Below are positions 1,779-24,200 of a DNA stretch of 36,238 bases, piece after piece. How positions within the stretch are numbered: position 1 is the first letter of the stretch; each line of letters begins with the position of its first letter. The notes beneath the pieces were generated by a model. It did not search any database. It was not told the DNA's origin and saw only the letters and a list, made by a program, of their open reading frames with translations. The stretch is taken from contig ONWT01000047.1 in assembly GCA_900321575.1 (NCBI GenBank), forward strand, positions 1 through 36,238. The letters run 5' to 3'. Made by a program: the position numbers and the translations under genes. This DNA comes from an uncultured Lentisphaerota bacterium. Its GTDB lineage: Bacteria > Verrucomicrobiota > Kiritimatiellia > RFP12 > UBA1067.

Positions 1779-1799
1779 TGTTGATAACTGTTTGATAAC
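1779..1799. promoter_or_regulatory. DnaA-box-like pair: TGTTGATAAC (perfect copy of the 10-mer) followed by TGTTTGATAAC
   Basis: The reverse complement GTTATCAACA contains TTATCAACA, an 8/9 match to the canonical TTATCCACA box. The site is intergenic, and an AT-rich stretch follows about 100 nt later (about 1915-1965). Confidence 0.45.
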
Positions 1800-1974: not shown

Positions 1975-3954
1975 ATGACAAATATATCAACATACGACAC
2001 AATCATAATCGGCGGAGGGCATGCCGGATGCGAAGCGGCCTTGGTTTCGGCGAGAATGGGAGCCAAAACGCTACTGGTTTCGGCGCAACTTTCTTCCCTC
2101 GCCCAGATGCCATGCAATCCTTCAATCGGCGGTCTGGCCAAGAGTCATCTAGTGCACGAACTGGATGCTATGGGCGGAGAGATGGGAGTGAATGCTGATA
2201 GAACGGCTCTGCAGTCCAAAATACTGAACAGAAGCCGCGGCCCGGCTGTGTGGGCGACGCGAACGCAATGCGCAAAGAAAGAGTACGCTTTGAGAATGCA
2301 GCAGGTGCTCGCGCAGCAAGATAATCTCTCAATTCTCGAAGACTCTGTTGTCGGTCTGGCAGTCGAAAACAACCCACCATCCAGCCCACGCCAGGGAGAT
2401 GCAGCCTCAACGGTCCCAATGACTGGCGATGCCATCACAGGTAAATGTACAGGCGTAATCACAAAGAGCCACGGCGCAATCAGTGCAAAGTGCGTTGTTT
2501 TAACAGCAGGCACAAGTCTTCGCGGCCGTATTTGGATAGGTAAAGAAGGTCATGACAGCGGCGGCGACGGGCGCCCCGCAGTTAACGAACTATCGGATTC
2601 TTTATCTCGTCTTGGATTCAGATTGATTCGACTTAAGACCGGAACCCCGCCACGGCTCAAAGCGAGTAGCTGCAATTTCACAAAATGCATAGTTCAATCC
2701 GGCGATTCACCACGTCCATTGTTCCACGTGGAACAATATAGCGAAACACTTGCCAACAACCGCGGTGTGTTCCACGTGGAACATTCCGGAAATGTGGATG
2801 GACAAACGCATGTGTTCCACGTGGAACATTTACCGGAATACCCTTGTTGGATGACACATACTACCCCTAAAACGCATGAAATAATACGGTCCAATCTCGA
2901 TAGATCCGCCCTTTACGGTGGCGCAATCGAGGGTGTCGGTGTGCGTTACTGTCCGTCTATCGAGGATAAAATTGTCCGTTTTGCAGGCGCTGAACAGCAC
3001 CATGTAATGCTAGAACCTGAAGATTCGAGCTGTAAAGTAATCTATCCTAACGGATTGAGTTGCAGTTTACCTAGAGATGTGCAGGAAGAGATGGTACGAT
3101 CCGTCCCCGGGCTCGAACACGCCGAGTTTCTTGCGTATGCATACGCCATCGAATATGACAGCATTGACGCACGGGAATTGAAGCATTCACTTGAATCTAA
3201 GCGCATTAAAAACCTGTTTTTTGCAGGACAGATCAATGGCACAACCGGCTATGAAGAAGCCGCTGCTCAAGGATTCATGGCCGGAGTCAACGCTGCTTTC
3301 TCCGCCCTCGGCAAGTCCCAGCTGGTTTTAAGCCGCCAAGATGCTTATATTGGCGTGATGATAGACGATCTTGTCACTAAGGGAACCGATGAACCCTACC
3401 GTATGTTTACGAGCCGGGCCGAGAGGCGGCTTATACTTCGACAGGATAACGCGAGATATCGTCTGGCCGACGCGGCAGATATAATTGGAGTAAAGAGCAA
3501 AACATTCCGCAATGAAACTCGTTGGATGATGCGAGTACTGTCTATTGCGCTAGACCATGTCTCTACGGGAGGCAAGAAAACAGCCGCAATGGCGTCCGCA
3601 GATCTGGTCAGAATGGCGATCGAAACAGAGAATAAAGAATCCTATTCTACTGTACAGGCTGCCTCAAATGAGGAAAATACCATATCAAAACTTGCGGAAC
3701 AACTAGATATTATGCGTCAATACGCGCCGTATATCGAGCAGGAAACAAAAGCTGCCGAGAGGGCAAAGAAGGACGAAATGCTGGCCATTCCGGCTTGGTT
3801 GGACTATGACAGCTGCACAGCTCTGCGTTTTGAGAGCCGTGAAAAACTCAAAGCCCACCGCCCCGAAACTCTGGTTCAGGCTTCCAGAATACCAGGAGTT
3901 AACCCTTCCGACATAGCCATTCTTGCAATCTATATCAAACGCGGCCATGCTTAA
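1975..3954 (+). CDS. mnmG: tRNA uridine 5-carboxymethylaminomethyl modification enzyme MnmG (GidA)
   Basis: The 659-aa product has an N-terminal FAD motif [16 protein letters not shown]. It also shows [55 protein letters not shown] and the C-terminal [13 protein letters not shown]. It carries extra loop insertions, described under the parS finding. Confidence 0.95.
2720..2735. other. parS-type centromere site 1, TGTTCCACGTGGAACA (perfect 16-bp palindrome)
   Basis: It matches the Firmicute-type parS consensus tGTTNCACGTGAAACa, each half being the TGTTCCAC half-site. It lies in frame in mnmG and encodes L-F-H-V-E-Q. Confidence 0.7.
2768..2783. other. parS-type centromere site 2, TGTTCCACGTGGAACA
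   Basis: The 16-mer is identical to site 1 and lies 48 bp downstream of it. It encodes V-F-H-V-E-H. Confidence 0.7.
2813..2828. other. parS-type centromere site 3, TGTTCCACGTGGAACA
   Basis: The 16-mer is identical to the other two and lies 45 bp downstream of site 2. It encodes V-F-H-V-E-H. Confidence 0.7.
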
Positions 3955-3959
3955 AGAAA

Positions 3960-3984
3960 GTTATCAACATTTTATGTTGATAAC
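3960..3984. promoter_or_regulatory. Inverted pair of DnaA-box-like 10-mers (GTTATCAACAT-TTT-ATGTTGATAAC) upstream of dnaA
   Basis: This perfect 11+11 inverted repeat sits 6 nt after the mnmG stop and about 90 nt upstream of the dnaA ATG. The position fits DnaA autoregulation and/or an origin element. Confidence 0.55.
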
Positions 3985-4071
3985 TTGTTGACATATGAAG
4001 ATTACTTATTTAGCACATTAGCCGAAAAATTTGGTATTATATGTGCGACGATAAGAGAAAGAAGATTCAAT

Positions 4072-5490
4072 ATGAGCGAAACAATAGATACACTTTCTAA
4101 AGACGCCTGGGAGAGGGCGAAGAAAATATATCTTTCTACACTGCCTACACCTGACGAACGTGGGCAGGCCGAGCGCCATTTTTCGATGATAACCTCTGTT
4201 ACTGTCGAGAACAATACATTTACGGTTTATACGTCAAACAACTTTGCCGCAGAGCTTCTCAGGTCTTCATACGAGAACAAACTCAAAAACTGTTTGAGTC
4301 TTGCGGGGGTTCCCGAGCCTGTAAATATCGAATTCAAGTTCGACGTAAGCTCGCGTCCGGCGATTATTGTGCCGAAAATGCCCGAGACTTACCAGCATAA
4401 CGGCGCAGAAGCGAAGCACCAGAACTATTTCGTCTCGACGATGCCTCTCAATGAAGAGTACACGTTCGATGAATTTGTAGTGGGTCCTTCGAACAGTTAC
4501 GTGTATGCAGCAGCGAAGGGCATAACGCAGGAGCCAGGCAAAAAGGGGTATAATCCTCTCTTTATCCATGGCGGCACGGGTCTTGGCAAGACACACATAA
4601 TGCAGGCAATAGGCAATGAAATAAAGAAAAAGAATCCTATGGCGGCAGTGTGCTATCTTACGGCCGAGCGTTTCATGAATGAATATGTCAACGCTCTTAC
4701 GAGCCACGAGCTGCAGCAGTTCCGCGACAGATACCGCAAAATCGACGTAATGCTCGTGGATGATATCCAGTTCATGAGCCAGGGCAAGCAGTTTCAGGAA
4801 GAATTCTTCAACACTTTCAACGCCCTTCACCAGGAAGGCAAGCAGATTGTAATGACTAGCGATGTGGCGCCAAAAGATCTGCCAAGAATAGAAACGAGGC
4901 TGATATCGCGCTTCGAGTGGGGTATGGTTCAGGAGATCGAGCTGCCAAGTTACGAGACGCGTCTCGCCATCTTGAAGAAGAAATCAGAGACCATGCGCCC
5001 GCCTATTCACGACGAAACTCTTAAATTCATAGCGCAGAACATAAAAACTCATGTCCGTGCAATGGAAGGCGCTCTGGCTAAAGTGAATGTAATGATGCAG
5101 ATGAACCCATCTGCCATTATGACGAGCCAGATTCTTTCGCATCTTCTCAAAGACTTCATCGAAAAGGAACAAACCCAGAAAAAGCTGACCGTCGCCGAAA
5201 TACAGAAGGCAGTGGGTCAGAAATACTATGTTACGATGGAGCAGATCGTCTCCCCTGAGCGCACGGCGACGCTGGTAACTCCGAGGCAGCTCGCTATGTA
5301 TATCGCAAAGAAGTTCACTAACAAGAGCCTTCCCGAGATAGCCAAGAGCTTCGGCAAATCTCACGCCACCATAATACATGGAGTGAAGACCATCAACAAG
5401 AGACTCGACGTGGAGCCGGAACTCAAGGAGAACCTTATTTCAATAATATCGAGTTTAGGGCTCACTATGGAAGATAAAGTCGACTCGTGA
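4072..5490 (+). CDS. dnaA: Chromosomal replication initiator protein DnaA
   Basis: Motifs are Walker A GGTGLGKTHIMQAIGNE, Walker B VMLVDDIQF, sensor and box VII regions, and the C-terminal DNA-binding helix LPEIAKSFGKSHATIIHGVKTI. The track ORF opens at a TTG at 3985. I prefer the ATG at 4072 (MSETIDTLSKDAWERAK) because an extended -10-like TGgTATTAT at 4032-4040 lies inside the longer ORF. The start remains uncertain. Confidence 0.93.
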   Translation: MSETIDTLSKDAWERAKKIYLSTLPTPDERGQAERHFSMITSVTVENNTFTVYTSNNFAAELLRSSYENKLKNCLSLAGVPEPVNIEFKFDVSSRPAIIVPKMPETYQHNGAEAKHQNYFVSTMPLNEEYTFDEFVVGPSNSYVYAAAKGITQEPGKKGYNPLFIHGGTGLGKTHIMQAIGNEIKKKNPMAAVCYLTAERFMNEYVNALTSHELQQFRDRYRKIDVMLVDDIQFMSQGKQFQEEFFNTFNALHQEGKQIVMTSDVAPKDLPRIETRLISRFEWGMVQEIELPSYETRLAILKKKSETMRPPIHDETLKFIAQNIKTHVRAMEGALAKVNVMMQMNPSAIMTSQILSHLLKDFIEKEQTQKKLTVAEIQKAVGQKYYVTMEQIVSPERTATLVTPRQLAMYIAKKFTNKSLPEIAKSFGKSHATIIHGVKTINKRLDVEPELKENLISIISSLGLTMEDKVDS

Positions 5491-5753
5491 ACATGTGCCT
5501 TCGAAAAAGTGTATACAGAGTGTAGAGAAGTGGCCAATTGTCTACAACGGATCAGAAAGAATGAACACCGATGAACATATCTCAACAGAAAAGTCAACAG
5601 CCGGAAAAAGCCCCGACCATTGCAAAAAGGGGCTTTCGCGAGTTGTGAACATTATCAACAAACCTAATAATATTATAATATAGACTCTTTTAATTATCCG
5701 TATTATTTGATACAATCTACACCAAGCCAGAAGTAAGGAAGAAAGGATACGCA
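5491..5753. other. dnaA-dnaN spacer: candidate oriC segment (DnaA-box-like sites plus an AT-rich tract)
   Basis: It contains ATTATCAACA at 5651-5660, TTATCCGTA at 5694-5702, and a nearly pure A/T tract AATAATATTATAATATA at about 5666-5682. This is the classical location of oriC in many bacteria. No replication evidence is available from sequence alone. Confidence 0.35.
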
Positions 5754-6848
5754 ATGAAATTCTCTATAGTGCGCTCGAAGTTTCTAGAAGCAATCAAGTC
5801 GGTGCAGAACATTGTCGCCGGTAAAGGGTCGCTGCCGATCATACAGAACGTGTTGATCGAGGCCAATGGCGGCGAGCTTCGTTTGACCACGACAGATCTC
5901 GATATTTCCATAAGGAGCACGGTCAAGTGCGAGATAGAGGAAGAGGGCAAGACGACTCTTCCAGTAAAGATACTTGCTAACCTCATGGTCAAGGCCCCCG
6001 AAGGCGCGGTCAACGTCAGCGTCGACAGAGAAGAGCTCGCGGTGATACGCGCGGGCAGCGCGAGCTACAGGCTGAAGGGCAAACCCGAGGCTGACTTCCC
6101 GAGGCTCAATGTAGATGAAGAGAGCAGCGAATATGTGATGCCCCGCCAGACTCTTCAGGAGATGTTGCGCAAAACTTCGTATGCCGCTTCCCAGGACGAT
6201 ACGCGCCGCACGCTCAAGGGTGTTCTCATGAGCTTCAAGGACAGCCGCCTTACTATGGTAGCCACAGACGGCCGCCGTCTCGCTCTTGTCGAGAAGGAGA
6301 TGGAGTTTCCGAAGACTGCCGAGCGCGACATCGTGCTGCCGTCGAAGGCCGTGCAAGAACTGCAGCGCTCTTTGAACGGCGAAGGCGACGTAAAGATCAA
6401 CGTTCAGGCGTCGAAAATCTCCTTCACCTTCGGCGATGTGGAGATCTACTCGAAGTTGATGGATGACGTCTACCCCAACTATCGCCAGGTAATACCTGCA
6501 GAATGCGCCGAGAAGATCGTCGTCGACCGCCAGCTTCTTCTGAACGCCCTCGATCGCGCGAGCGTAATGACTGTAGACGAGGCCCATTCCACAAAGCTCA
6601 TTTTCGAGGCTAACAGGCTTACAGTTACCTCTGCCGCGACAGAACTCGGCGAAGCCAAGGACGAAGTGCCGATCAAGTACGCCGGCGAAAAGATCGAAAT
6701 TATGTTCAATCCCAATTATGTGATGGATCCTTTGAAGGCTATAGACGACGACGAGATATCCATAAACATAAACAACGGCCACTCTCCTGCCGTGATAAAG
6801 TGTTCGATACCTTTCCTCTATGTGCTGATGCCGCTTCGCATAAGCTGA
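5754..6848 (+). CDS. dnaN: DNA polymerase III beta sliding clamp
   Basis: The 364-aa product starts MKFSIVRSKFLEAIKSVQNIVAGKGSLPIIQNVLIEA..LRLTTTDLD and ends with the typical ...YVLMPLRIS. Its position immediately after dnaA fits, and an AGGAAGAAAGGA RBS lies upstream. Confidence 0.95.
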   Translation: MKFSIVRSKFLEAIKSVQNIVAGKGSLPIIQNVLIEANGGELRLTTTDLDISIRSTVKCEIEEEGKTTLPVKILANLMVKAPEGAVNVSVDREELAVIRAGSASYRLKGKPEADFPRLNVDEESSEYVMPRQTLQEMLRKTSYAASQDDTRRTLKGVLMSFKDSRLTMVATDGRRLALVEKEMEFPKTAERDIVLPSKAVQELQRSLNGEGDVKINVQASKISFTFGDVEIYSKLMDDVYPNYRQVIPAECAEKIVVDRQLLLNALDRASVMTVDEAHSTKLIFEANRLTVTSAATELGEAKDEVPIKYAGEKIEIMFNPNYVMDPLKAIDDDEISININNGHSPAVIKCSIPFLYVLMPLRIS

Positions 6849-8827: not shown

Positions 8828-8902
8828 ATATCAACAGAAGATATAAACAAAGTAATGAACACGTGTTCATAAGTTGATAAGTCTGTTGATAGTGTTGATA
8901 AC
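8828..8902. promoter_or_regulatory. Cluster of four DnaA-box-like elements
   Basis: The elements are ATATCAACA at 8828-8836, AGTTGATAA at 8872-8880, TGTTGATAG at 8884-8892 and TGTTGATAAC at 8893-8902, the last being a perfect 10-mer. An AT-rich stretch follows at 8916-8940. Confidence 0.45.
8855..8870. promoter_or_regulatory. Perfect 16-bp palindrome ATGAACACGTGTTCAT (candidate operator)
   Basis: The palindrome can be read directly from the sequence. It has a CACGTG core like parS but different arms, and it sits 40 nt upstream of the putative -35 of the XRE regulator gene. Confidence 0.4.
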
Positions 8903-9644: not shown

Positions 9645-10097
9645 ATGACAATGTTCACGAGCAAAAATCTCGTGGCGGTTGCTGTCGCAGCAATCGTCTG
9701 TTTGGTCGTTGTTTTTTACGGATGCTCGCGCAAGAACGAGCCTGCGCCCGAGGGTGAGAACAAACCTGCCGCCGAGGGTGAAGTCGTGTATCGCCTAGAA
9801 GACCCGCAATACCGCGCCGCTCTAGACGAGAGGCTCGATGCCCAGAAGGAGTTGACCAAGCTGCGCTACCGCCTCGTTACGGAGATGCAGGCGAAGATCG
9901 CCGCCGCTAAGGAGCGCCTCGCGACAGAAGACGAAGCCGTGCTGAAGGCCGAGCTTGAAAAGGACCCCGAATGGAACTCTCTTTATAAACGTGTCGAAGA
10001 TTTGAACACCGCGCTCGAAGACGAGCGCAAGCGTGCCGAGGCAGTCGTGCGCAACCGCATAATGTCCGACGCGCAAAAGGAGTCCTCCGGAAAATGA
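9645..10097 (+). CDS. Small N-terminally anchored (possible lipoprotein) helical protein, partner of giant protein 1
   Basis: The 150-aa product has a hydrophobic helix LVAVAVAAIVCLVVVFYG|C, a possible non-canonical lipobox. The rest is charged and helical, with the motif LEKDPEWNSLYKRVEDLN. It has a strong RBS, and its stop overlaps the next ATG (ATGA at 10094-10097). Confidence 0.8.
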   Translation: MTMFTSKNLVAVAVAAIVCLVVVFYGCSRKNEPAPEGENKPAAEGEVVYRLEDPQYRAALDERLDAQKELTKLRYRLVTEMQAKIAAAKERLATEDEAVLKAELEKDPEWNSLYKRVEDLNTALEDERKRAEAVVRNRIMSDAQKESSGK

Positions 10098-13000
10098 TTT
10101 TAAGTTTCAGGAATTTTGCGCTTGCCGCCCTGCTCTGTCTTGCGCCACCCGTGGCCAAGGCTGAAGATTGGGGCGAGAGCTACAACAGCTCGGTCGAGCT
10201 GACGATAAAAGGGCAGAGCGAGGCTCTCACGAACTTTCCCCTGCTGGTCAGGATATCCGAGGCGCAGCTGCCCGGTTTCAAGTATGATGCAGAGAACACA
10301 GCCAGCGATAATCTGGCTTTCGTCGCAGAAGACGGCACTGCGCTCAACTACGATGTCGATACGTGGGATACGAGCGGAGAATCCACAATTTGGGTAAAGA
10401 TACCCGAACTGCCCACAACCGGCACGACAATCACGATGTACTGGTCGCTCAAAGAGGGCGAGACGGCGCCAGAAAATAACAAAACGGCTGTCTGGAGCGA
10501 CTATGCTGGCGTCTGGCATATGACTGACGACTCGGCTGCCACGGCGAACGCACCTACAGCAACTCAAGGCGCAGATAATGTATCGACAAATGGCGTGTTT
10601 GGTTATGCGTTTGCTACAGTTAAAGACGGCGAACCAATTTTGGTTGTCGACACCGATGATCAGATCAATAACCTGACGAACGGAACCTTCACCATAACTT
10701 TCTGGACATATCTCAATTCTGTGTCTGACGGTGGCACTTCTCAGCAATATCTCTTTTCGCGTCGCGAGACATGGGCAAATGATGGCTATGCGGTTTATCT
10801 GCACCCGCGAGCACCTAGCGACAGCGTTAATATCGGTTTGGCAGCTGGCGATGCTGGATACAAGTGGTCGACCACGGGCCCGGTCAATGGGGTGATTCGC
10901 GACGGGTGGATGCAAAACGACATTGTGTACTCGAAGGAAGACACAAAATTCTACTGGTATATCAACGGTATGCTGGATAGCACGCATGGTTTTTCAATTG
11001 GTATGCTTGACTATGCCACCCGTCCATTTGCCAATGGTGCCCAGGATAAGATCGCAATCGGCGGTCGACTTGTTACCGGTTCCGGCGCAGACAGCAATAT
11101 CAACGGTGCTATCGACGAGTTTCGAATGAGGGTTGGCGCGACCGACGCCATCCGCGCCGGTGCAGAATACGCCAATGCGGTGCAGGCGGCTTATCTTAAT
11201 TCGACAGATACTGATTTCATAAAGACCGAGCTTGTTTCGACAAACGGTGTTATTGTCGATTACTGGGCCACGCAGCCGTCAATATCGACTCCCTCTTGGA
11301 TTGCCGGCACTCTCGACGAGTCTGGTTTTGCAATAAACAGCGGTGCTTTGAAGAGCGGCGCGGCGGGCGAGGTATACAAGTGCACGTCCAAGAACGGTAG
11401 CTGGTCCACGAACGAGGTTACGGCGGCTTCGCTCAATGCCCTTGAGCCTGGCGAGTATTTGATTTACTTCCGCCGCACGCAAGATATCGCCTACAGCGCC
11501 GATGACGCCACGGTTGCGATAGAGGTGCAGGCGGACGCGGGCGGATTCTTCGATGACAGCGTTACCTTTACCGTAAAGGGTGCCGGCACGGACCTTGATG
11601 ACTATCCCGTCCTCTTGAGGCTCTCGGAGGCGCAGTTGCCCGGCTTCAAGTATTCCCGTGCCAATCAAAACGAGCTTTCGTTCAGCGCGGAGGGCAGCAA
11701 TGTGCCGCTCCCGTACGAAGTCGACGAATGGAACGAGTCCGGCGAGTCTCTGGTCTGGGTCAAGCTGCCGAAGTTGCCGGCGGCTGGCACGGTCATAACG
11801 ATGTACTGGTCGCTCAAGGAGGGCAAGACCGCCCCGGGCAACGACCCTACCAAGGTCTGGAGCGCCTACGCCGGCGTTTGGCACATGGCAAGCGCCAAAG
11901 ACTCCTCCCCCGGCTCTGCGAGCGGCACCAAGTCGTCTAGCTCCAGCTATATTGACGGTTTCGTCGGCAAGGCGCTCGGCAACAACACCAATGCGGGCGG
12001 ACCTTTCATAACCGCGACTCCGACCGACAGCATCAACTCGCTCACTAACAACGGCTTCGTCGCATCGTTCTGGCTCAATATCAACAGCTTCGACGTCAAT
12101 AAGGCCTTCCTGTTCGGCCGGCGCACGGCGCGATACAATACCGACGGCTACGGCGCCAGCTTCTGGACGGAAGACGATATTTCGCAAATTGCCCTATTCC
12201 CCGGCAATCAAACGCAATATTTCCGCCACTGGCTGCGCGGTTTGACGACCAACGAGTGGGTGCACCTTGATATCGTCTTCGCAAAGCGGCGCTTCCAGTG
12301 CTGGGTCGACGGCGTGTTCCAGACTATGTCGAACGCCCCGAACGTACCGGCGCCGACATGCGGCGACAGCGATTTCGCCATTGGCGGCGCTCCCGGCAGA
12401 ACCACCGATCAGGCGCTCAACGGCGCGATCGACGAATTCCGCCTTATTCCGTATGACGCGTCGAGCTATAGTGCCCGCATCGAGGCGGAATACGCCAACA
12501 TGACGCAGACGGACTATATCGGCGCTACCGACGACAGCTTCATAAAGCCCGGCATGGTCAAGAGCGGCGATGAAGAGTTCGACTATTGGTCCGTTCCGCT
12601 CGAGGTTTCGACTAATACGTGGACGGTCGGCCAAATCACGGCGGAAGAAATCTCCGTCGATAAAGTGCCCGTCCTGCGTAGCGGCAAGGAGGTGGAGTAT
12701 TATTATCTGGATACGCTCAACCCGACCAACTGCCCGATAGCGTCCGTGGACGACATCCCCGCCAAGCTCGCCGCTTTGCCCGAAGGCATTTACAGGCTCT
12801 GCTATGCGAGCAAGGAGACCAATGCCGAGACGGGATATGTCGAAATATACGTGCGCTTCGACATGGGCAATTATACAGACTGGGTAGATCTGACGCTGAA
12901 CGGTATAGCCGAAGACACGGTCATAACCAATTATACTCTCCTCGTCCGCGTCAGCGAAGACAATCTGCCCGGCTTCAGATATTCCCGCGCCGGCAACGGA

Positions 13001-16000
13001 ACGAAGCTCGCGTTCGTGGACGAGACTGGCGCCAAGCTCTACTATGATGTGGATACGTGGAACGCCCAAGGCGAGTCCATCGTCTGGGTGAAAGTGCCTT
13101 TCGCCCGCAAGGGTAGCGTAATAAGGTTCTATTGGGGCATAGACGGCGCAGTTTCCGCGCCTTCCAACGACGGCAAGATGGTGTGGAGCGACTACGCGGG
13201 CGTCTGGCACATGGAGAATACTGTAGTAGACGCGGCCGGCAAGTCCGAGGACGGTACCAAGCATGCAAAGGCCGCCTATACGGGCACCGGTATGTTCGCA
13301 GGCGCTTTGGGCCGCAACGAGACAGGATCCAATGGGCCGATAGCGACAGTACCTTCCGGCGACGCCATCAATTCCATCAGCAATGATGCGTTCACGGTTT
13401 CGGCATGGGTGCGGCTTAAGTCTACCGCAACGAATTGGGCGTATATCTTTTCGCGCAAGGCAATCGACGGCACGGTCTCTTGGGGCTTGCAGTTCAGGGG
13501 CAACGGGAATGCGGGAACATACGATGCTCTGCAGGCGTGGTATGACGGGAACAGCAACAGGGCCCTATTCAGAGACACGACTGTCTTCGGCACGGCAAAC
13601 GAGTGGGTCCATGTAATGGTTGGCTACATGAGCGGCGAAGCCAAGCTTTGGCTGAACGGCGTGCAGTATTCGACTGCGGACATTCCCACAGGTTTGCCGT
13701 CGCTCGACCCGACGATGGATTTCTACATAGGCGGTCTTCTCTCCGGACACGGTACGCTCAACGGCGATATGGACGAAGTCCGCATAAAGGTCGGCGCGGT
13801 AAATCAAGCAGAAGTCGCCGCCGCCTATTCGAATGCGACATTGAGCGCCTACCGCAACTCTACGGACGAAACCTTCCTCAAGACAGGGCTCGTGCATGTC
13901 GATGGCGAGCCGGTAGATTACTGGAATCCCAAGCTGTCGCTCTCGTCCTCCGTCTGGGAGGCAGGCAGCGCGCCCGAATCGCTGGCGTTCACAAACGGAG
14001 TCCTGCGCAGCGGCGCGGCGGTCACCAACTGGTGCGTAAACCTGACTACCGGCGAAACAGCGCTCGAGAACGTCACTGTCGACGGACTCAAGGCTCTCTC
14101 GGAGGGCTCGTACCGCATATGGAACAAATCCCTTGGCGACTATGCAGTCGCGGATGTCTCGCTCGACTTTACCGTGACGAAGTCGTCAAGCGTGCCTGTT
14201 GTCGGCGAAACTTCCGACGGCCGCATATTGCTGATGAACCACGACTGGTCGCAGACGAAAGAGATAACCGGTCAGGGCTGGGCGTGCACGAATGTGTCGA
14301 AAGCTACTTTCTGGGAGCATAGCGAGACGAACGAGGTCGCCAAATACAATCTGAAGAGCAGCTATATCTCCACGCTCTGGACCTGGGACGAAGGCCACAC
14401 CGCCACCAACCGCCTCTGGCATCTCGACAACTGCCGCCACGGCAATACTTTCCCGTCGGACAATGAAGAAGCCCTCGCCCCCGATCAAAACTATCTTCCC
14501 TTTAGCGCAAAGTCCGGTAGCATAGATGATGATACAGATTCGACCTCGCCGACCGACCGCGCGGGCGTCGGGCAGATTTTGATGCAGAACACCGACACCG
14601 CCATCGTCTATTCGCCTTGCTTCGACGAGGGTATCGGCACCATATATTTCGATGCAGTGAACATGATGACGAATATCGTCTCCGTTTCTACCGACGGCTC
14701 GCTAACAAACGACTGCTCTTACCGTATCGTTGTCGAGTTCGCCACAAATACCACATTCGACTTGCCGCCGACCGAGGCGAATGCCCATGTTTTTGACGAG
14801 GTGACGAAACTCTATGCGAAGCTCAACGATGAATGCTGGCATCCTTGCGAAAGCTATATGGTCAGCGTGAGCAACTCGACGATGACGCTTGTCGGTCACG
14901 GGCAGAATATCGATCTCAATGTCACGACTGGCGGGAAAATGGACGAGTTCTACCGCATTTATGTTCCACTTGAAATACGCCAGCCCGTTCGTTTCAGGAT
15001 AAGGCGCGTCTCGACGGACCTCGCCAAAGTGGACGACCCTGACGACTCGTTTGTGCTGATCGACAATATAGTCGCGTCGTATCCGCGCATGACCGCCTCT
15101 CTCGGCAACCTCGGCTATTACGACACGGCCAAGAAGGGCAGCGAGATTCTCGGCTACGAGGACGCATTCGAGCCGAAGTTCCCCGCCGTAGGCGACCAAG
15201 TCCGCGCCAGGGCCGGCATTTCGCGCTATGTGAACTCCGGCGCGGAGTATGGCGAGCCGTCGAGCTTCTTCGCCTCCGCGAAGATGCATTACCGCTGGCG
15301 CTACCTCAACCAGGTCGTGGGCGACTGGAAGGTTGTCGAACTCGTCCCAGTCGAAAACAATCGAATGGTGGCGAAAGAGAACGATACGCTGGTCCTTCCC
15401 GGCCAGGCCGGCGATGTCGAGTACTGGTTCGAGTCCGTCCTCCAGGCGCCGTACTACCGCCATGTGGACTATTCGGGCAGCAATCTGGAGGAGGCGTTCA
15501 ACAGGATATACACAGAGAACAATCCGGTGGTCGTGACCAACGCCTCCGACTCCAGCTATATTGCGACGTGCGGCACCAACTGGTTTGTGCGTCTCAGAGA
15601 GGGGCACAGCGAATACGAGAGCATGTCCATCATCACGAGGGCGGCCGGCGACACCTCCGTCTGCGAGACGAATGTGATGTCGATAGTCTCCGACGGCAAA
15701 TGGCGCGGCTTCGTGAAGACGCGCAGCGCTCTTGAGGACGGCCTCGAATTCCGCTTCGAGGGCGTAAAGCTCAATGATGTCGTGGAAGGCGTACCCTTGC
15801 GCGAAACATTGAAGTGGACCTCGCAAGTGCCGATGACTAACAGCCTGCCCGCCACAGGCGGCGCAGTTTTCAGCGACGGTGAAAAATGGGAGAAAGTGCT
15901 GTGCGACGCCGCGACAGGCTATCTTATATTCACCTATGACGAGTCGGGCACGATAGGCGTCGGGCGCGGCGATCACCAGAACTTCAATTCCTGGCCGACC

Positions 16001-19000
16001 GCCGCCGCGAAGAAGGGGCTCTTCGTCGGTTCGCAGCTTGACGTAAACACGTCCAGCTACGATTCGACGGAGGTCGATTCTGATATCGCGAACTGGGCGG
16101 TATCTTCCGCCACGAACAAGAACTGGCGGGAATCGTTCTCGGTGGGTTCCGGCCAGATAGCCGCGAAGATATATCCGCGCGACCAGTCTTTCTCGGTGAC
16201 CAACCTCGCGAGCGGATGGACGGCCCACAACGCTTCGTGGACGTACGAGCGCTGGGCGTGCGATTTCGCGCAGAACGGCGTTTTCGGCGGCAAGACAGCT
16301 CTCCAGCTCGAAGGCTGCGGCCGCGGCATATTCTCGCTCGAAAGCGCGAGCGACTATCCTAACGGACTCGACACCGTGCGTTTCAAGGCCCGTGTCGCAC
16401 AGTTCAACAATTTCAACGATTTCGCATACTACAACCAGGCTACCTACGACACAAGCACACACAAGATAGTCAACGCTTTTAAACAGAAGAATTACGCGTT
16501 CGCGACTTATACCGCGCTTACCCTAAACAATGACAAGGCCGGTTACGACGGTGACGGCTCGGTCTCGTTGATCGCCTGTTACGACCCGACATATGGCGCG
16601 TACGAAGCGCGAGTTTCGCGCGGCGGGCAGAACGGCGAGAACCTGAGGTTCACGCTCTACAGGTGGTCGGTCAATAACGGCGCGATGACATGCGATGTGC
16701 TTGGCACGAACGACTTCCCCTATGCCTCGGTGGCGGATCTTCACCGCGACAACGACAATGTGGGGCTGATGCCGGTATTCTACATTTCCGTCCAGGAGCA
16801 TGTCACGGAGAACAGCGTAGCCGGAACGCTCATTCACGCTGGCGTAAGCACCAAAGCGATCAACACGAGCACCTCGCTCACGGCCGGAACGCTCAACAAC
16901 CAGACTTTCGATTCGAGCGTCTATTTCGACACTTCCGACAAGCGTCTCAAGGCGGGAACGGTCGGCGTGCTCGCGCGGAATTGCGCCGGAGCGTTTCTAA
17001 AACCCGTTAAGCTGTCCGCCCCGATATCCCATATCGGTAGCCACGACATGAGCGGTTGGGAGACGCCGAACAAGATAAACCGCTACACGAACGCGCGCGT
17101 GACGTTTGAGGGCTCGCTTGATATAGAAACATGTGATTCGTCCGACCCCGACGAATATTTTAGCTGCTGGTCGTTGCCCCCCGGCCGCACTCTGAAATTC
17201 ACCAAGGGCAACAACAACGTGTTTTACTGGGGCTTTACCGGCATCACCAATGTTTCGCAGAGAATCGCCGTTCAGACGGCCACGCACTCCAAGTCGAACA
17301 CGGGCACGCACCAGGAGACCGACTGGACGACGGTTACCAACATAACCGTTACAGGTTTCGCCGACCAGACTTTCGATTGTGCCGTCCGCAACCATGAGCA
17401 GTGCGACGTGCGCCTCAAGGTTCTCGGCGGCATAAACGACAATCGCCTTGATGTGACGATCGACGATGTCGAGCTTACGCAGTGGAACGGACAGTCGACG
17501 CCCAACTACGACACAAATAGAAACAACGGCTTCCCCGAGAAATATGTCTACACGTCAGCCTGGATAAACCAGGACAACAACGAGCTCAAGACCAAGGCGG
17601 TGAAGCTGCAGCCCGCCAGGGCGGCGAAAGCCTCGACACCCGTCTCGATACGCACGCCGGCCATGAAGGGCGTGGGCGCATTCCACATCAGGTGGCGCAA
17701 CGCCGACAGCCGCGCGAAGTTCCTCGTGCAGCAATGCAAAGACACTCCTGCGAGGGTGGACAGCAACCTCATCTCGCTGACGGATGCTGCGGCCGACGAT
17801 ACTTCGCTCGGGTGGGAGACTATAGAGACGCTCGACTTTACCGACCCCGCCTCCGACTACTACGGCAGGACGGACGGCAGCGAGACGCTCTTCTTCACCG
17901 AGCGCTATGACGAGAAAAACAAGACCAACACCGTCTTGCGCCTTGTCGCCGACCAGTCCGTCGTCGCCACCATAGCCGCCGACACGACAATCGCGCTCAC
18001 CGACCCCGAATACGGCTCTATCGAGATTCTCGAGTCTTATGTCTGGGACCTTCCTCCCTACGACAAACGCAGCTGGAGCGGATGGAACTTCAGGGCCGAC
18101 GGCTGGGCGGGCGAGCCTTCGATGTGGGCCAGCCTCGGCGACGCCACTACCGGACTTTCGGGGCTCCTCAACAACACCGTCGAGGACGAGAGCTGTCTCG
18201 CCGATTCTAAAGACTATTATCGCGGCAACAAGCCTTACATACAGTCGCCGACGTTCGAGGCGAACTGCATAGGGTCCGTCGAGTTCCGCGCGAGGCTCTA
18301 CGACCCGGTGTTCGATATTTCCGCAGGCCATCCCGCCGTAGTTTCTGTCTACGGTGCGAACGAGATCGACAAGGAGACGGGCGAGCCGGCCAGCTGGAAT
18401 CTGGTTACGAATGTCATCGTAGACTCGTCTTCGTATGTTCTCAAGTCCGCCAAGTTGGGCGAGCAGTATTGCGCACTGCGCTTTGCCGTCGACGGAGTGC
18501 GCGGCATAACGGGCGACGCGGGCGAACCGGAATACGACCCGCCGCTAAGGGTCGCGATCGACGATATATGCGTAATTGAGCAGCCGATACCGTCCATCCG
18601 CTTCAGGACGAACTTCGTGCGTCCGTTCCGCAACGACGAACTGTTGAAGAGCGGAGACCTTATCGGCGACATAGATTCGTCCGCCGAGCAGCCGATTATC
18701 GGCGAGTCGTTCGGCTTCCAGGCCGAGGTTGTCCTGGACGATATCGAAAACGAGATTGTCGTCGACGACCCCGAAAAACCTCTTCGCGTCTATCTCGCCT
18801 ACTGCACGTCGGCTTCGCCGTGGGGCTGGCGCAACTGGATAGAAAAGGCGGAGCCCGTCGAGCTCGCCCGCGTCGAAGATGCCGACGGCCGTCTTGTCTA
18901 CCGCTCTACAATCTCAAGCCCGAAGTCGATCTGTCCAGCGCAGTTCATAGGCGGCGACAGCGCGCTCTCCGGCAAGCAGTACAGACTCGTGCAATACCAT

Positions 19001-20854: not shown

Positions 20855-21259
20855 ATGAAACTCGGTAAAGGTACGCTAATCACCCTGGCGGTGGTTGTGG
20901 CGGTCGCTGTATTGGCGGTCGCTATCGCGCTTTTGCCGAAAACGGGCGGCGGCGAAGGCGCTGGCGACGCTACGGTAGAAGTCTCGGCAGAAGCGTATAA
21001 TCAAGGCATTGCCGACATTGATTCGGTGCAGCGGGCTATTGTTGCGGAACGCGCCGCAGTCATACGGCAGATGTCGGAGATAAGCGTTGCCAAGGGCAAT
21101 GACGAAGAGGCGATTCTTGCCGACCCCGAGTGGCGCAGGCTTGAAAAGGAGTTCGCGCGGCTCAACGCCGGATATGAAGCCGCGCGCCTCGACATGATCG
21201 ATTTCAGAAAGACACGCGTCGTAAAAGACGCACCAAACGCGGAAGAAGTTTCGAAATGA
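20855..21259 (+). CDS. Small N-terminally anchored helical protein, partner of giant protein 2 (distant paralog of 9645..10097)
   Basis: The 134-aa product has one TM/signal-anchor helix, LITLAVVVAVAVLAVAIALL. The rest is helical and charged, with LADPEWRRLEKEFARLN aligning to the DPEW motif of the first small protein. Its stop overlaps the next ATG (ATGA at 21256-21259). Confidence 0.8.
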   Translation: MKLGKGTLITLAVVVAVAVLAVAIALLPKTGGGEGAGDATVEVSAEAYNQGIADIDSVQRAIVAERAAVIRQMSEISVAKGNDEEAILADPEWRRLEKEFARLNAGYEAARLDMIDFRKTRVVKDAPNAEEVSK

Positions 21260-24200
21260 GGAAGAACACCATGAAGATCAAAAACCTCGCTAAGATGACA
21301 GTTGCGGCGTTTTCGCTGCTTGCTTCGGTGACACTCGCAAAGGCCGGCGACATCTACTCGATAGATCTCGTGAGCACTTCGCTGTATGGTGGCAGGGTGC
21401 CGACCAAGGATTCGCCTCTGCTTGCCGGCGAAAAGGCCGTCATACGGGTGAGGATGGTCAATCGGGGGTGGGATGATCCCACAGCATCCGGGGGGAGGAC
21501 TTGGTATTTCAGCCCAAAGGTCGCCTTTAGCGATGAGATGGTGAAATCGCCAAGTTTTGCTCCGGCATTTGGCTTTTTGCTTGGTGGCAAAGCCATATAT
21601 GCGACATATCTTGATACAGTGAATGTCTCGACTACATATACCGATATCTTTTTTGAATATACCGTCCAGACTGGCGATCTCGCCTTGCCCGCCCTCTACA
21701 TGGGAAAGGACGGTGATCCTGTCACGAGCGAAAGCGTTACGCCAGAATACAGTTTGCGCAATTCGCTTTATTGGGCGCTGACGAATGACAAGAGCGAAAC
21801 AGCAACGCTTTCCTTTGCGGCGGCGGAGGTTTATGACGATATTACGAAGCCGACGGACCAGCCTGGTTCGCCGAACTCCGAGCCGACGGGTGATGCACTC
21901 GGCCTTTATGTGAAAACCGTCGATTTTGACGAAAACTATTCCGATCCCGATAACGCGATCTGGCGTAGCGTCGGCTACAACGATACCGATACCTCTAATG
22001 GCGTTCAGCCCTCGATAACCGTAAAAGGCGGCGTCGCCGAATCTGCGACAACTGTGTATGTCTGGGTTGAAGACGAGACCAAAGCCGAGCCTTATCCGCG
22101 CAAGTCGGCGACCCAGCCCAACGGGGCGGAAGGCTACGACGACGGCTATGGCGAGCGCCTGATTCTGCCGGTGACGATCGCCGCAGGTTCGCAGTCGCAG
22201 ACATTCCTGCTCAAGGGTCTTGCGCTTGACGAGACGGCGACCGTTTGCATGAGCTCCTCGAAAGATCGTATTAAGGTGACAGGCGGCTTCAAGACGACTT
22301 GGGTTTCCCGCAAAATAAATATCGTGCAGCTTGAGCCTTCGGTCACCCTGACTCTTAGAGATCTCAACGGCGATGCGACATCCGAACTCCAGTGCTCCGA
22401 CAATTATAAGGAGTATATAGCGACCTTGGATGTCAAGCTTTCGACGACCCCGACCGGCAACATCGATGTCGATATTTCAGCCGACCCGGATGTCCTCAAA
22501 ACGTCTCCGACGAACATTGTGCTTTCGACATCTTCCGACAAAGCGCTGAATCCGTGGGAAAGCCCTGTCACCAAGGTGTCGTTCTCGGCGGGCGACGCTA
22601 ACCCCACGAAGACCTTGTTCGTCTATGCGCTCGGCAGCTCCGATCAGATCGAGAATACAGCCGCGACATTCACACCCTCGTCGACGAGCGCCGCCGCGAC
22701 CCAGTTCACCAAGTGGAACTCCTGCAAGATGACGCTCAAGCGCGCATCGGCGACCGTCAAGCCGCAGGATAGCCAGAGCACCATCGACGATATGGAGCTT
22801 AGCAGCGATTACGATCTTACTCTCGTCGTCGGCGGCAGTTACAACGACCTCCGCAATGTCGGCGGCAATTGGACCGTAAAGTACTACTTCAAGGACGCTA
22901 CTGGCAAGATACTTGGAGGCAAAACCATCAAGAATCCTTACACGGCTACTGCGCCCGCGACCGTCACCGGCGGCGACCTGACGGGTACTTTGCTGCTGAC
23001 CATTCCGTCGGACCACATCAGCGCCGACGCCGCCTCGCTGGAGCTCTGGGTCGTTTCGCCCAGCGGCTCCGTGTCGGACCATGCGGTGATTTCGATACCG
23101 GAAGGGCCCTCTAGAGGAATGGAGGCGTTTGTCGTGGATGCCGACACGGAGGAAAATCTCTATGAGATAGAAGCCAATGAAGGCGACGTCAAGACTTTCA
23201 AGTTCAAGCTGTCCGAGAAATACAACAATGTCGCCTATGCCTTCTTGAAGCCGCAGGAAGATAGCATGACGAACTCCATATCCTGCTCGTTCTATGCCTA
23301 TGACGGCTACAAGGGCGTCACCATCGATTTGAAAAACGGCGTCTCGCGCGTTGCGAAGATGACCATGCTCGACGGCGAAGCGATAGGCAGATTCGAGGTC
23401 GTAATCTGCTCCTCCGAAGAGTATGATGCGACTAAAAAGCTCGACTACAACAGCGGCGCCGTTCTCACGGTCGCGGCGGCCAATGTGGAGCCGGTTGTTC
23501 GCGAGGTCAGGTACGGCAGCACTTCCGTAGCTCCCGGCGGAAAGCTCTCCGTGGCGCTGCCGCTCAATATCGACAGCACGTTCAGGGCTACTATCTACGA
23601 GCCCGGCAAGGGCGATCTCGCCACCTTCGAGACGCAGTGGTACTTCGACGACGATCCGTACGGCGGCGTCAACGGCGACGGTTGGTACTCCGTCGTGGGC
23701 GACCCGTCCAAGACGAACATGACCCACAAGTTCAGCTCGTCCGGCACGTGGTCCGTCAAGGTTCGTTGCCGCGACAAGGAAATGGCGGCTGAAGACGAGT
23801 GGAGCGACGAGTTCGCGTTTACCGTCAGTGTGGACGACGAACCGGCTGTAATCATCACCCCCCGCACTGGCGGATATACTTATTACGAAGACCAGACGGG
23901 CCTTGCCGAAAGCGCCTTTGATGTGAGCCTCATCGGCGCACCCGTGATATCGGCAGGCAACGATCCTCTCAAGGTTCGCCTCACGGTGCAGAATCTCGGC
24001 GCAAGCGGCCTTGTCGAGCTTTCGACCAACCTGGTCACGTTCACCACCCGCCAAGACGGACGCAGCGGCAACGACGCGCTCTCACATAGCTTCTATTTCA
24101 AGGCTCTTAACGGAACTATCGATTCGGGCAACGAGGGCTTTGCCATCACCGCGACCGTTGAGAACCCGGAGGTTGACACACTGGGCAGAACGTGGAATCC

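What the first reader, a model, noticed from the sequence alone, without database searches (positions are those of the whole stretch)
2720..2828. Three perfect palindromic parS sites encoded in frame within an expanded surface loop of MnmG
- The 16-mer TGTTCCACGTGGAACA occurs three times, at 2720, 2768 and 2813, with spacings of 48 and 45 bp.
- It matches the widespread parS consensus tGTTNCACGTGAAACa and is perfectly palindromic.
- All three copies are in frame and give a peptide triple repeat, (L/V)FHVE(Q/H).
- From my memory of E. coli MnmG (...[23 protein letters not shown]...), this loop is about 25 aa shorter there. Copies 2 and 3 therefore appear to sit in an insertion whose main purpose may be to carry centromere sites.
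- The sites lie 1.3 kb upstream of dnaA, so a ParB partition complex would nucleate inside an essential tRNA-modification gene next to the origin.
- No parA or parB gene lies in the window.
Basis: partly seen in the sequence, partly recalled or inferred. Interest (0 to 1): 0.6.

Follow-up and report, generated by a model that had tools for sequence, protein, structure and literature searches.

The report
Chromosome centromere sites written inside mnmG
Three exact copies of the bacterial chromosome-segregation site parS are written in frame into a floppy loop of the tRNA-modification gene mnmG beside the replication origin; relatives keep the DNA sequence there in all three reading frames, so a DNA-binding site dictates part of an enzyme's sequence.

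Summary
TGTTCCACGTGGAACA occurs at 2720, 2768 and 2813, in frame in mnmG (1975-3954), about 1.2 kb before dnaA. These are the only copies (up to 2 mismatches) in the 1.44-Mb MAG.

The genome encodes a canonical ParB, a Soj-type ParA and SMC on other contigs.

- **Conservation:** every mnmG I examined from relatives carries 1-7 such sites inside the ORF. That covers 29 loci of the same order, 39 class-level genomes chosen because they hold the exact 16-mer, and 10 families of other classes of the phylum.
- **Selection acts on the DNA:** the sites are read in all three frames (FHVE, CSTWN, VPRGT). Synonymous positions are frozen, while 143 invariant residues elsewhere in MnmG never keep a single codon.
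- **Tolerance:** the host loop varies from 29 to 185 aa and AlphaFold gives it low confidence.
- **Added here:** two lineages switched all copies symmetrically to TGTGCCACGTGGCACA. Exactly those four genomes have Asn-to-His at the ParB recognition-helix residue equivalent to Caulobacter N178.

Best reading: a genuine ParB-loading centromere embedded in a coding loop. The kind of site is known (nine of ten P. aeruginosa parS sites are intragenic), but I found no paper describing this arrangement. This scan has already reported it several times on other genomes. No binding experiment exists.

The parts
2720..2735 (.). parS copy 1, TGTTCCACGTGGAACA, read as (L)FHVE(Q). It overlays the position of the ancestral FS(W/F) motif of MnmG.
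2768..2783 (.). parS copy 2, read as (V)FHVE(H), in the extra loop segment.
2813..2828 (.). parS copy 3, read as (V)FHVE(H), in the extra loop segment.
2719..2841 (+). Coding stretch for the variable MnmG loop (residues L249-Y289). Block-mean pLDDT is 43-73 over residues 251-290. The loop is about 26 aa longer than in E. coli MnmG.
1975..3954 (+). mnmG (gidA), an intact 659-aa ORF that hosts the sites.
3985..5490 (+). dnaA, immediately downstream (Bac_DnaA and Bac_DnaA_C domains).
3961..3983 (.). Two convergent DnaA-box-like TTATCAACA 9-mers in the mnmG-dnaA spacer. Further copies lie at 1779-1787, 5652-5660 and 8893-8901 (5 found against 0.27 expected).
5754..6848 (+). dnaN (beta clamp), part of the origin-proximal gene set.

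Best explanation
The three 16-mers are the chromosome's parS centromere. The proposed steps are inferred by homology, not shown.
1. Dimers of the genome's single canonical ParB nucleate on each palindrome.
2. They close as CTP-dependent clamps and slide over neighbouring DNA, that is mnmG, dnaA and the DnaA-box regions.
3. The resulting partition complex is moved by the Soj-type ParA and probably loads SMC, so the newly replicated origin region is segregated.

The sites lie inside a translated but structurally tolerant surface loop of MnmG. The enzyme simply carries whatever peptide the fixed DNA encodes in the local frame (FHVE here; CSTWN or VPRGT in relatives). Copy number changes by duplication or loss of loop segments.

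Shown here:
- sequence identity to experimentally bound parS;
- uniqueness in the genome and proximity to the origin;
- presence of ParB, ParA and SMC;
- DNA-level purifying selection that is independent of reading frame;
- covariation between site variants and the ParB recognition helix.

Why the sites sit inside mnmG is an inference. Close parS pairs directly flanking mnmG are common in other phyla, so the ancestral site probably moved a short distance into the gene, or the gene extended over it. There it stays linked to the origin region.
For: - **Exact sites, not chance:**
- **Unique in the genome:** these are the only sites at up to 2 mismatches in the 1.44-Mb assembly. The five 3-mismatch hits match my own estimate of about 5 expected by chance.
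- **Known ParB target:** the 16-mer is identical to P. aeruginosa parS2/parS3, which ParB binds, and nine of ten parS sites there are intragenic (PMC4368675).
- **ParB:** 341 aa, with TIGR00180 above its cut-off and the Noc model below its cut-off. It has the GERRLRA motif and the HTH GKGRATVANAVRLL. R and G occupy the parS-type specificity positions 173 and 201, with no Lys at 179 or 184 (PMC7383237).
- **ParA and SMC:** ParA with KGGVGKTT; SMC.
- **Origin proximity:** dnaA and dnaN are adjacent and DnaA boxes are enriched. In near-complete relatives the mnmG sites lie 21-27 kb (four genomes) or 85 kb (one) from dnaA.
- **Same order:** all 30 loci (29 relatives plus this window) hold 1-7 sites inside the mnmG frame. 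There are 74 copies, 67 of them perfect, in all three phases.
- **Wider sample:** 39 of 39 class-level genomes, and 10 of 10 genomes from 10 other-class families, have sites inside mnmG.
- **Frozen synonymous sites:** none of 143 invariant residues keeps a single codon (mean 3.7 codon types). All 44 FHVE peptides use TTCCACGTGGAA, where codon usage predicts 0.025 per copy.
- **Site variants:** TGTGCCACGTGGCACA was found in 4 of 401 class genomes, only inside mnmG, and in two separate families.
- **ParB covariation:** those four ParBs have His at the N178-equivalent position. The 22 other genomes examined have Asn.
- **Tolerant loop:** low pLDDT in an otherwise confident model (mean 88.6, pTM 0.91).
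Against: - There is no binding, ChIP or localisation data for any member of this lineage.
- parA, parB and mnmG lie on three different contigs of a fragmented MAG that is 82% complete, so further parS sites in unassembled DNA cannot be excluded.
- The three palindromes also give the mRNA a strong predicted fold (z = -4.5), so an added RNA-level effect is not excluded.
- The class-level and phylum-level samples were chosen from genomes that hold the exact 16-mer. They show where the sites are, not how often they are absent.
- The covariation rests on two independent events only.
Confidence: 0.88

Rival explanations
1. The repeat is selected at the protein level. In this view an FHVE(Q/H) peptide motif, for example a metal- or partner-binding repeat in MnmG, is the functional unit, and the match to parS is incidental.
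For: In this window all three copies are in the same frame and give nearly the same hexapeptide.
Against: - In relatives the same 16-mer is read as CSTWN or VPRGT within the same loop.
- All 44 FHVE peptides use one codon set, although synonymous sites elsewhere in the gene are saturated.
- The loop has low model confidence and ranges from 29 to 185 aa.
Confidence: 0.02
2. The palindromes act mainly as RNA hairpins in the mnmG(-dnaA) transcript, controlling translation, stability or termination, and not as DNA sites.
For: The 151-nt segment folds much better than shuffles (-57.6 kcal/mol, z = -4.5). The variants found in relatives remain perfect palindromes.
Against: - An RNA stem would tolerate many compensatory changes, yet 67 of 74 copies in the order are identical in sequence.
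- The sequence is the known ParB site.
- The only two variant types found covary with ParB recognition-helix residues.
- Close pairs of the same 16-mer also sit in untranslated DNA flanking mnmG in other phyla.
Confidence: 0.05
3. The sites are bound by a different CACGTG-recognising protein, such as a transcription factor or a Noc-like ParB paralogue, and have nothing to do with partition.
For: A second, different CACGTG-core palindrome (ATGAACACGTGTTCAT, 8855-8870) exists in the window, so other readers of this core may exist.
Against: - Only one ParB_N-family gene was found in the assembly.
- It scores below the Noc cut-off and has parS-type specificity residues.
- The full 16 bp, not only the core, is conserved.
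- Site variants covary with this ParB's recognition helix.
Confidence: 0.04
4. The copies are remnants of a small palindromic mobile or repetitive element (REP/MITE-like) that happened to insert in the loop.
For: Copy number varies, and some relatives carry tandemly duplicated units (66-bp, about 90-bp and about 140-bp periods).
Against: - There are no other copies anywhere in this genome.
- The variant 16-mer occurs nowhere outside mnmG in 401 genomes.
- The spacers in this window are unrelated and Tandem Repeats Finder reports nothing.
Confidence: 0.01

Closest known systems
Pseudomonas aeruginosa chromosomal parS1-parS4, especially parS2/parS3 (Jecz et al. 2015, PMC4368675)
   Same: - The 16-mer is identical (TGTTCCACGTGGAACA).
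- The sites cluster near the origin.
- Most P. aeruginosa sites lie within coding sequences.
- One high-affinity site near oriC is sufficient for segregation.
   Different: - There the sites are spread over about 16 kb in different genes, with six more sites elsewhere.
- Here all sites sit within 110 bp, in one loop of one gene, and the loop has expanded around them.
- Here the position is conserved across a phylum, and the sites are read in all three frames.
Bacillus subtilis parS in the spo0J (parB) coding sequence (Lin and Grossman 1998; from my own knowledge, not read here)
   Same: A parS centromere site embedded in an origin-proximal protein-coding gene without inactivating it.
   Different: There it is a single site within normally folded coding sequence of the partner gene itself. 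It is not an expandable array in a disordered loop of an unrelated enzyme.
Intergenic parS pairs flanking mnmG in other phyla
   Same: The same 16-mer, the same close pairing (27-57 bp apart), and the same neighbour gene. The parS-mnmG linkage is therefore ancient and widespread.
   Different: In 26 of the 29 scanned loci that hold mnmG the pair lies wholly outside the ORF, usually within about 100 bp. Only the Kiritimatiellia and Puniceicoccaceae loci had it inside. One Bacteroidales locus had a site overlapping the 3' end.
ParB/Noc specificity switching (Jalal et al. 2020, PMC7383237)
   Same: Changes in a few recognition-helix residues accompany symmetric changes in the 16-bp palindrome.
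   Different: The natural switch seen here (Asn to His at the N178 equivalent, with T4 to G and A13 to C) involves a residue reported there as conserved in both ParB and Noc. It occurs within bona fide chromosomal ParBs.

Membership tests
Chromosomal parS (ParABS centromere) | 16-bp palindrome matching TGTTNCACGTGNAACA | tested here: met
   Three perfect palindromes, identical to P. aeruginosa parS2/3.
Chromosomal parS (ParABS centromere) | Cognate chromosomal ParB encoded in the genome (ParB_N with the GERRxRA CTP motif, and an HTH with parS-type specificity residues) | tested here: met
   G000:C70 ORF of 341 aa. PF02195 scores 91.5 bits and TIGR00180 181.5 bits (cut-off 58.45). GERRLRA is present, with R173- and G201-type residues.
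Chromosomal parS (ParABS centromere) | ParA/Soj-type deviant Walker A ATPase present | tested here: met
   G000:C14 ORF of 288 aa with KGGVGKTT; PF13614 scores 193.9 bits. It scores below the cut-off of the NCBIfam ParA_partition equivalog, a plasmid-type model.
Chromosomal parS (ParABS centromere) | Few sites per genome, clustered near the replication origin | tested here: met
   Three sites only, 1.2 kb from dnaA and among DnaA boxes. In near-complete relatives the sites lie 21-85 kb from dnaA.
Chromosomal parS (ParABS centromere) | Site and ParB DNA-reading residues evolve together | tested here: met
   TGTGCC-type sites go with His at the N178 equivalent (4 of 4 genomes, two families). All 22 other genomes examined have Asn.
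Chromosomal parS (ParABS centromere) | Physical ParB binding, spreading and partition function | not testable with these tools
   Needs EMSA/BLI, ChIP-seq and genetics.
MnmG/GidA (TIGR00136) | Full-length match above the equivalog cut-off, FAD motif, MnmG fold | tested here: met
   686.9 bits against a cut-off of 524.85. GGGHAG and 120 invariant columns across 43 orthologues. Foldseek TM 0.81/0.88 to Aquifex GidA.
Noc / NBS nucleoid-occlusion sites | Noc-type protein (Q173, K179/K184, R201) and NBS-type palindrome | tested here: not met
   The Noc model scores 208.9 bits against a cut-off of 315. The residues are R, A, E and G. The site is parS-type.
REP/MITE-like dispersed palindromic repeats | Many dispersed copies in the genome | tested here: not met
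   No copy outside mnmG.

The most novel reading that the evidence does not exclude
The coding location may itself be selected and not merely tolerated. On this reading, placing the only centromere inside a translated loop of an origin-linked housekeeping gene gives Verrucomicrobiota a centromere that cannot be lost or moved without damaging mnmG, and it lets copy number be tuned by in-frame duplication. The lineage would also hold naturally orthogonal ParB-parS pairs (Asn/TGTTCC, His/TGTGCC, and a third GTTTCC type with a remodelled helix). Those pairs would reveal a simple recognition code at a residue so far regarded as invariant.
Probability: 0.3. Interest if true: 0.72.

Novelty: new variant of a known kind. 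Interest (0 to 1): 0.6.

Why it matters
- **A protein sequence set by a DNA site:** it is a clean natural case in which a protein-binding DNA site overrides protein-coding constraints. The same 16 bp is kept in three reading frames inside a conserved enzyme across a phylum.
- **A marker for uncultured genomes:** it gives a ready way to locate the centromere and origin region in the many uncultured Kiritimatiellia and Verrucomicrobiota genomes.
- **A guide for testing MnmG:** it points to where MnmG may tolerate insertions, judged from loop-length variation and low model confidence, not from experiment.
- **A testable recognition rule:** the site variants, together with the Asn-to-His change in the ParB recognition helix, offer naturally evolved and possibly orthogonal ParB-parS pairs. 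These directly test how ParB reads position 4 of parS, and they could serve as DNA-labelling or plasmid-partition tools.

Tried and rejected
- **Tandem Repeats Finder** on 2600-2950 found nothing. The spacers between the copies in this window are unrelated, so there is no sign of a recent duplication here, although relatives show clear tandem units.
- **RNA fold:** the fold is strong, but it follows trivially from three identical palindromes. I did not take it as evidence of an RNA function.
- **Literature:** searches for parS with mnmG, gidA, Verrucomicrobia or Kiritimatiellia and two papers checked in detail gave no description of parS inside mnmG. Livny et al. 2007 is not held.
- **Whole-collection scan:** It is a sample, not a census.
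- **Synteny:** dnaA is immediately next to mnmG only in this genus and one other lineage (11 of 84 loci). The mnmG-dnaA adjacency is therefore not the conserved feature.
- **Solvent exposure:** I did not compute it from the model. Low pLDDT is used as a proxy.

Full report
**Observation.** The 16-mer TGTTCCACGTGGAACA is present at 2720, 2768 and 2813, with no further match in the window at up to 2 mismatches and none in 100 dinucleotide-preserving shuffles. The sites lie in the 659-aa ORF 1975-3954. That ORF is MnmG/GidA by Pfam (E 2.8e-144), by the NCBIfam equivalog TIGR00136 (686.9 bits, cut-off 524.85), by PDB sequence matches (E 8.9e-152 to Aquifex GidA) and by fold (TM 0.81/0.88). Each copy begins at the second base of a codon and reads (L/V)FHVE(Q/H). 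dnaA (3985-5490) and dnaN (5754-6848) follow directly. DnaA-box-like TTATCAACA 9-mers occur five times in the window against 0.27 expected, two of them in the mnmG-dnaA spacer.

**Own genome.** The window is contig C89 of a 1.44-Mb MAG in 119 contigs, 82% complete. At up to 2 mismatches the three sites are the only ones in the assembly. The five 3-mismatch hits equal the roughly 5 I calculate as expected by chance.

- **ParB:** a single ParB_N gene sits on C70. It encodes 341 aa with GERRLRA and the HTH GKGRATVANAVRLL. It passes TIGR00180 (181.5 bits, cut-off 58.45) and fails the Noc model (208.9 bits, cut-off 315). Its best PDB relatives are chromosomal ParB/Spo0J proteins, the top one being the H. 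pylori Spo0J chain 4UMK.
- **Specificity residues:** counting from the GK(S/G)R motif, it has Arg and Gly at the positions that Jalal et al. 2020 identify as parS-type (173, 201). It has no Lys at 179 or 184 (PMC7383237).
- **ParA and SMC:** a Soj-type ParA (KGGVGKTT) is on C14, and SMC is on C18.
- **Linkage:** parA, parB and mnmG are on different contigs and are not adjacent to one another.

**Relatives.** All 29 related mnmG loci fetched (same genus plus eleven other families of the order) contain 1-7 copies inside the mnmG open frame. Counting this window, there are 74 copies (leaving out L036, which carries a variant site), 67 of them perfect.

- **Three frames:** spacings are often not multiples of three. 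The same DNA is translated as FHVE (44 times), CSTWN (15) or VPRGT (12).
- **Loop length:** the segment between the conserved GDxPxP and PCWxTHT motifs is 29-185 aa, against 29 in E. coli. It is low-complexity and in some genomes is made of tandem units of 22, about 30 or about 46 aa, each carrying one site.
- **Position of copy 1:** in this genus the first copy replaces the ancestral PPPLFSW motif (now PRPLFHVE). In the other families that motif is kept and the sites lie downstream of it.
- **Class and phylum:** 39 of 39 class-level genomes with listed exact sites have them inside mnmG. So do 10 of 10 genomes from 10 other-class families in the phylum. One has the site at a different place, near residue 530, and three have a second site just outside the gene.
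- **Total counts:** where the whole-genome count can be set against the mnmG locus, the exact sites in mnmG account for all exact sites in the genome (1-3 in those genomes).
- **Distance to dnaA:** in near-complete assemblies the sites are 21-27 kb from dnaA in four genomes and 85 kb in a fifth.
- **Taxon:** record titles from the whole-collection scan place the group in Kiritimatiellia/Verrucomicrobiota. Locus L100, a Kiritimatiellia MAG, has the same 123/38-bp spacing as one family of the order.

**DNA-level selection.** Across the 30 orthologues, 143 alignment columns have an invariant residue other than M or W. None keeps a single codon, and the mean is 3.7 codon types, so synonymous sites are saturated. 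Yet all 44 FHVE peptides are encoded by TTCCACGTGGAA. Codon usage in the same genes predicts that combination at 0.42 x 0.39 x 0.26 x 0.58 = 0.025 per copy. Together with the three-frame usage, this excludes selection on the peptide.

**Structure.** An AlphaFold2 model built from 43 orthologues is confident overall (mean pLDDT 88.6, pTM 0.91). It has segments below pLDDT 50 at only a few places: the first three residues; residues 137-151, a second lineage-specific insertion; and residues 259-271 and 277-283, in the parS loop, where block means over residues 251-290 are 57, 43, 47 and 73. I did not calculate surface exposure. The low confidence and the extreme length variation are the basis for calling the loop tolerant.

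**Wider context.** Among the 80 listed loci, 29 contained mnmG, and in 26 of these the pair lay wholly outside the ORF, usually within about 100 bp. These came from Bacteroidota, Clostridia, Acidobacteriota, Pseudomonadota, and Rubritalea among the Verrucomicrobiota. The pair lay inside mnmG only in the Kiritimatiellia and Puniceicoccaceae loci. One Bacteroidales site overlapped the 3' end. The parS-mnmG linkage is therefore old and general, and the intragenic position is the lineage-specific part.

- **TGTGCC type:** genome G032 carries three copies of TGTGCCACGTGGCACA in its mnmG loop and nowhere else. In the sister genus of this window's genus, three genomes carry the same variant.
- **GTTTCC type:** two genomes of that sister genus carry GTTTCCACGTGGAAAC, with up to six copies, again in the mnmG loop.
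- **Rarity:** in 401 genomes of the class, the TGTGCC variant occurs in exactly those four genomes, in two genera of two families, and only inside mnmG.
- **ParB helices:** the four TGTGCC genomes have VAH or VTH where the 22 others have VAN, VTN, IAN or ITN. This is Asn to His at the residue equivalent to Caulobacter N178, which Jalal et al. list as a parS-contacting residue conserved in both ParB and Noc. The other 22 are canonical, near-canonical or GTTTCC type.
- **Third type:** the two GTTTCC genomes instead have an extra Lys before the helix and Gly in place of the helix Arg (GKKNRSSVANLVGLL).
- **Independence:** the His change sits in two clearly different ParB backgrounds. One has, and the other lacks, a 10-residue insertion further along the protein. 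I therefore count two independent events.

This is comparative evidence that this ParB reads these sites. It is a small sample.

**Mechanism and its status.** By homology, ParB dimers would nucleate on the three palindromes, close as CTP-dependent clamps and slide over mnmG, dnaA and the DnaA-box regions. They would then engage ParA and load SMC. None of these steps has been observed in this lineage. Transcription and translation through the sites evidently continue, because the ORF is intact and all conserved MnmG residues are kept. Nine of the ten predicted P. aeruginosa parS sites likewise lie within coding sequences (PMC4368675).

**Rivals.** A peptide repeat, an mRNA hairpin, another DNA-binding protein and a mobile palindromic element are each addressed under the rival explanations. 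The RNA effect cannot be fully excluded as an additional consequence.

**Novelty.** The kind of element is textbook. What differs is the arrangement: the genome's only centromere sites packed into an expandable, translated loop of one conserved enzyme, kept across a phylum in all three frames, with co-evolving site and ParB variants. I found this in no paper I could search. This scan has already reported the same arrangement on other genomes (e1-2687823, e1-2873626, e1-4526149, e1-3333066, e1-2231045, e1-5101971). My results agree with those notes and were obtained independently here.

Noticed in passing
L226-L231 (G111, G242, G230, G105, G245) and L036 (G032); ParB loci L217, L235-L239: Relatives carry two alternative symmetric parS types in the mnmG loop, TGTGCCACGTGGCACA and GTTTCCACGTGGAAAC. 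Within each genome nearly all copies are the same type (G105 has one copy with a mismatch at the last base). The ParB recognition helix differs accordingly: Asn to His, or an extra Lys plus Arg to Gly.
   Followed up: yes
window 8855-8870: A perfect 16-bp palindrome, ATGAACACGTGTTCAT, with the same CACGTG core but different arms. It is unique in the assembly and lies among DnaA-box-like 9-mers, upstream of a small minus-strand ORF. Its binding protein is unknown.
   Followed up: partly
window 2371-2448 (MnmG residues 133-158): A second lineage-specific insertion in MnmG ([26 protein letters not shown]). It is absent from E. coli MnmG, has pLDDT below 50, and carries no parS.
   Followed up: partly
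L026, L029, L035 (mnmG loops of same-genus relatives): In-frame tandem arrays in which each unit carries one parS: 66-bp units with 5 sites, 87-96-bp units with 7 sites, and 135-144-bp units with 3 sites. The centromere array therefore grows by duplication within the coding loop.
   Followed up: partly
L202 (G053, another class of the phylum): The single exact parS lies in a different variable region of mnmG, near residue 530, and not in the loop at residues 250-290.
   Followed up: no
L038-L117 (whole-collection scan): Close pairs of the same 16-mer lie directly beside mnmG, in intergenic DNA, in many unrelated phyla. Some CPR and Acidobacteriota loci hold 5-8 copies within 1 kb.
   Followed up: partly
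window 10094-20809 and 21256-33846: Two giant ORFs, 3571 aa and 4196 aa, on the plus strand downstream of the origin-proximal genes. I did not examine them.
   Followed up: no
window 1779-1787, 3961-3983, 5652-5660, 8893-8901: TTATCAACA DNA-box-like 9-mers lie in four separate intergenic regions around mnmG, dnaA and dnaN (5 found, 0.27 expected). The exact oriC is not resolved.
   Followed up: partly
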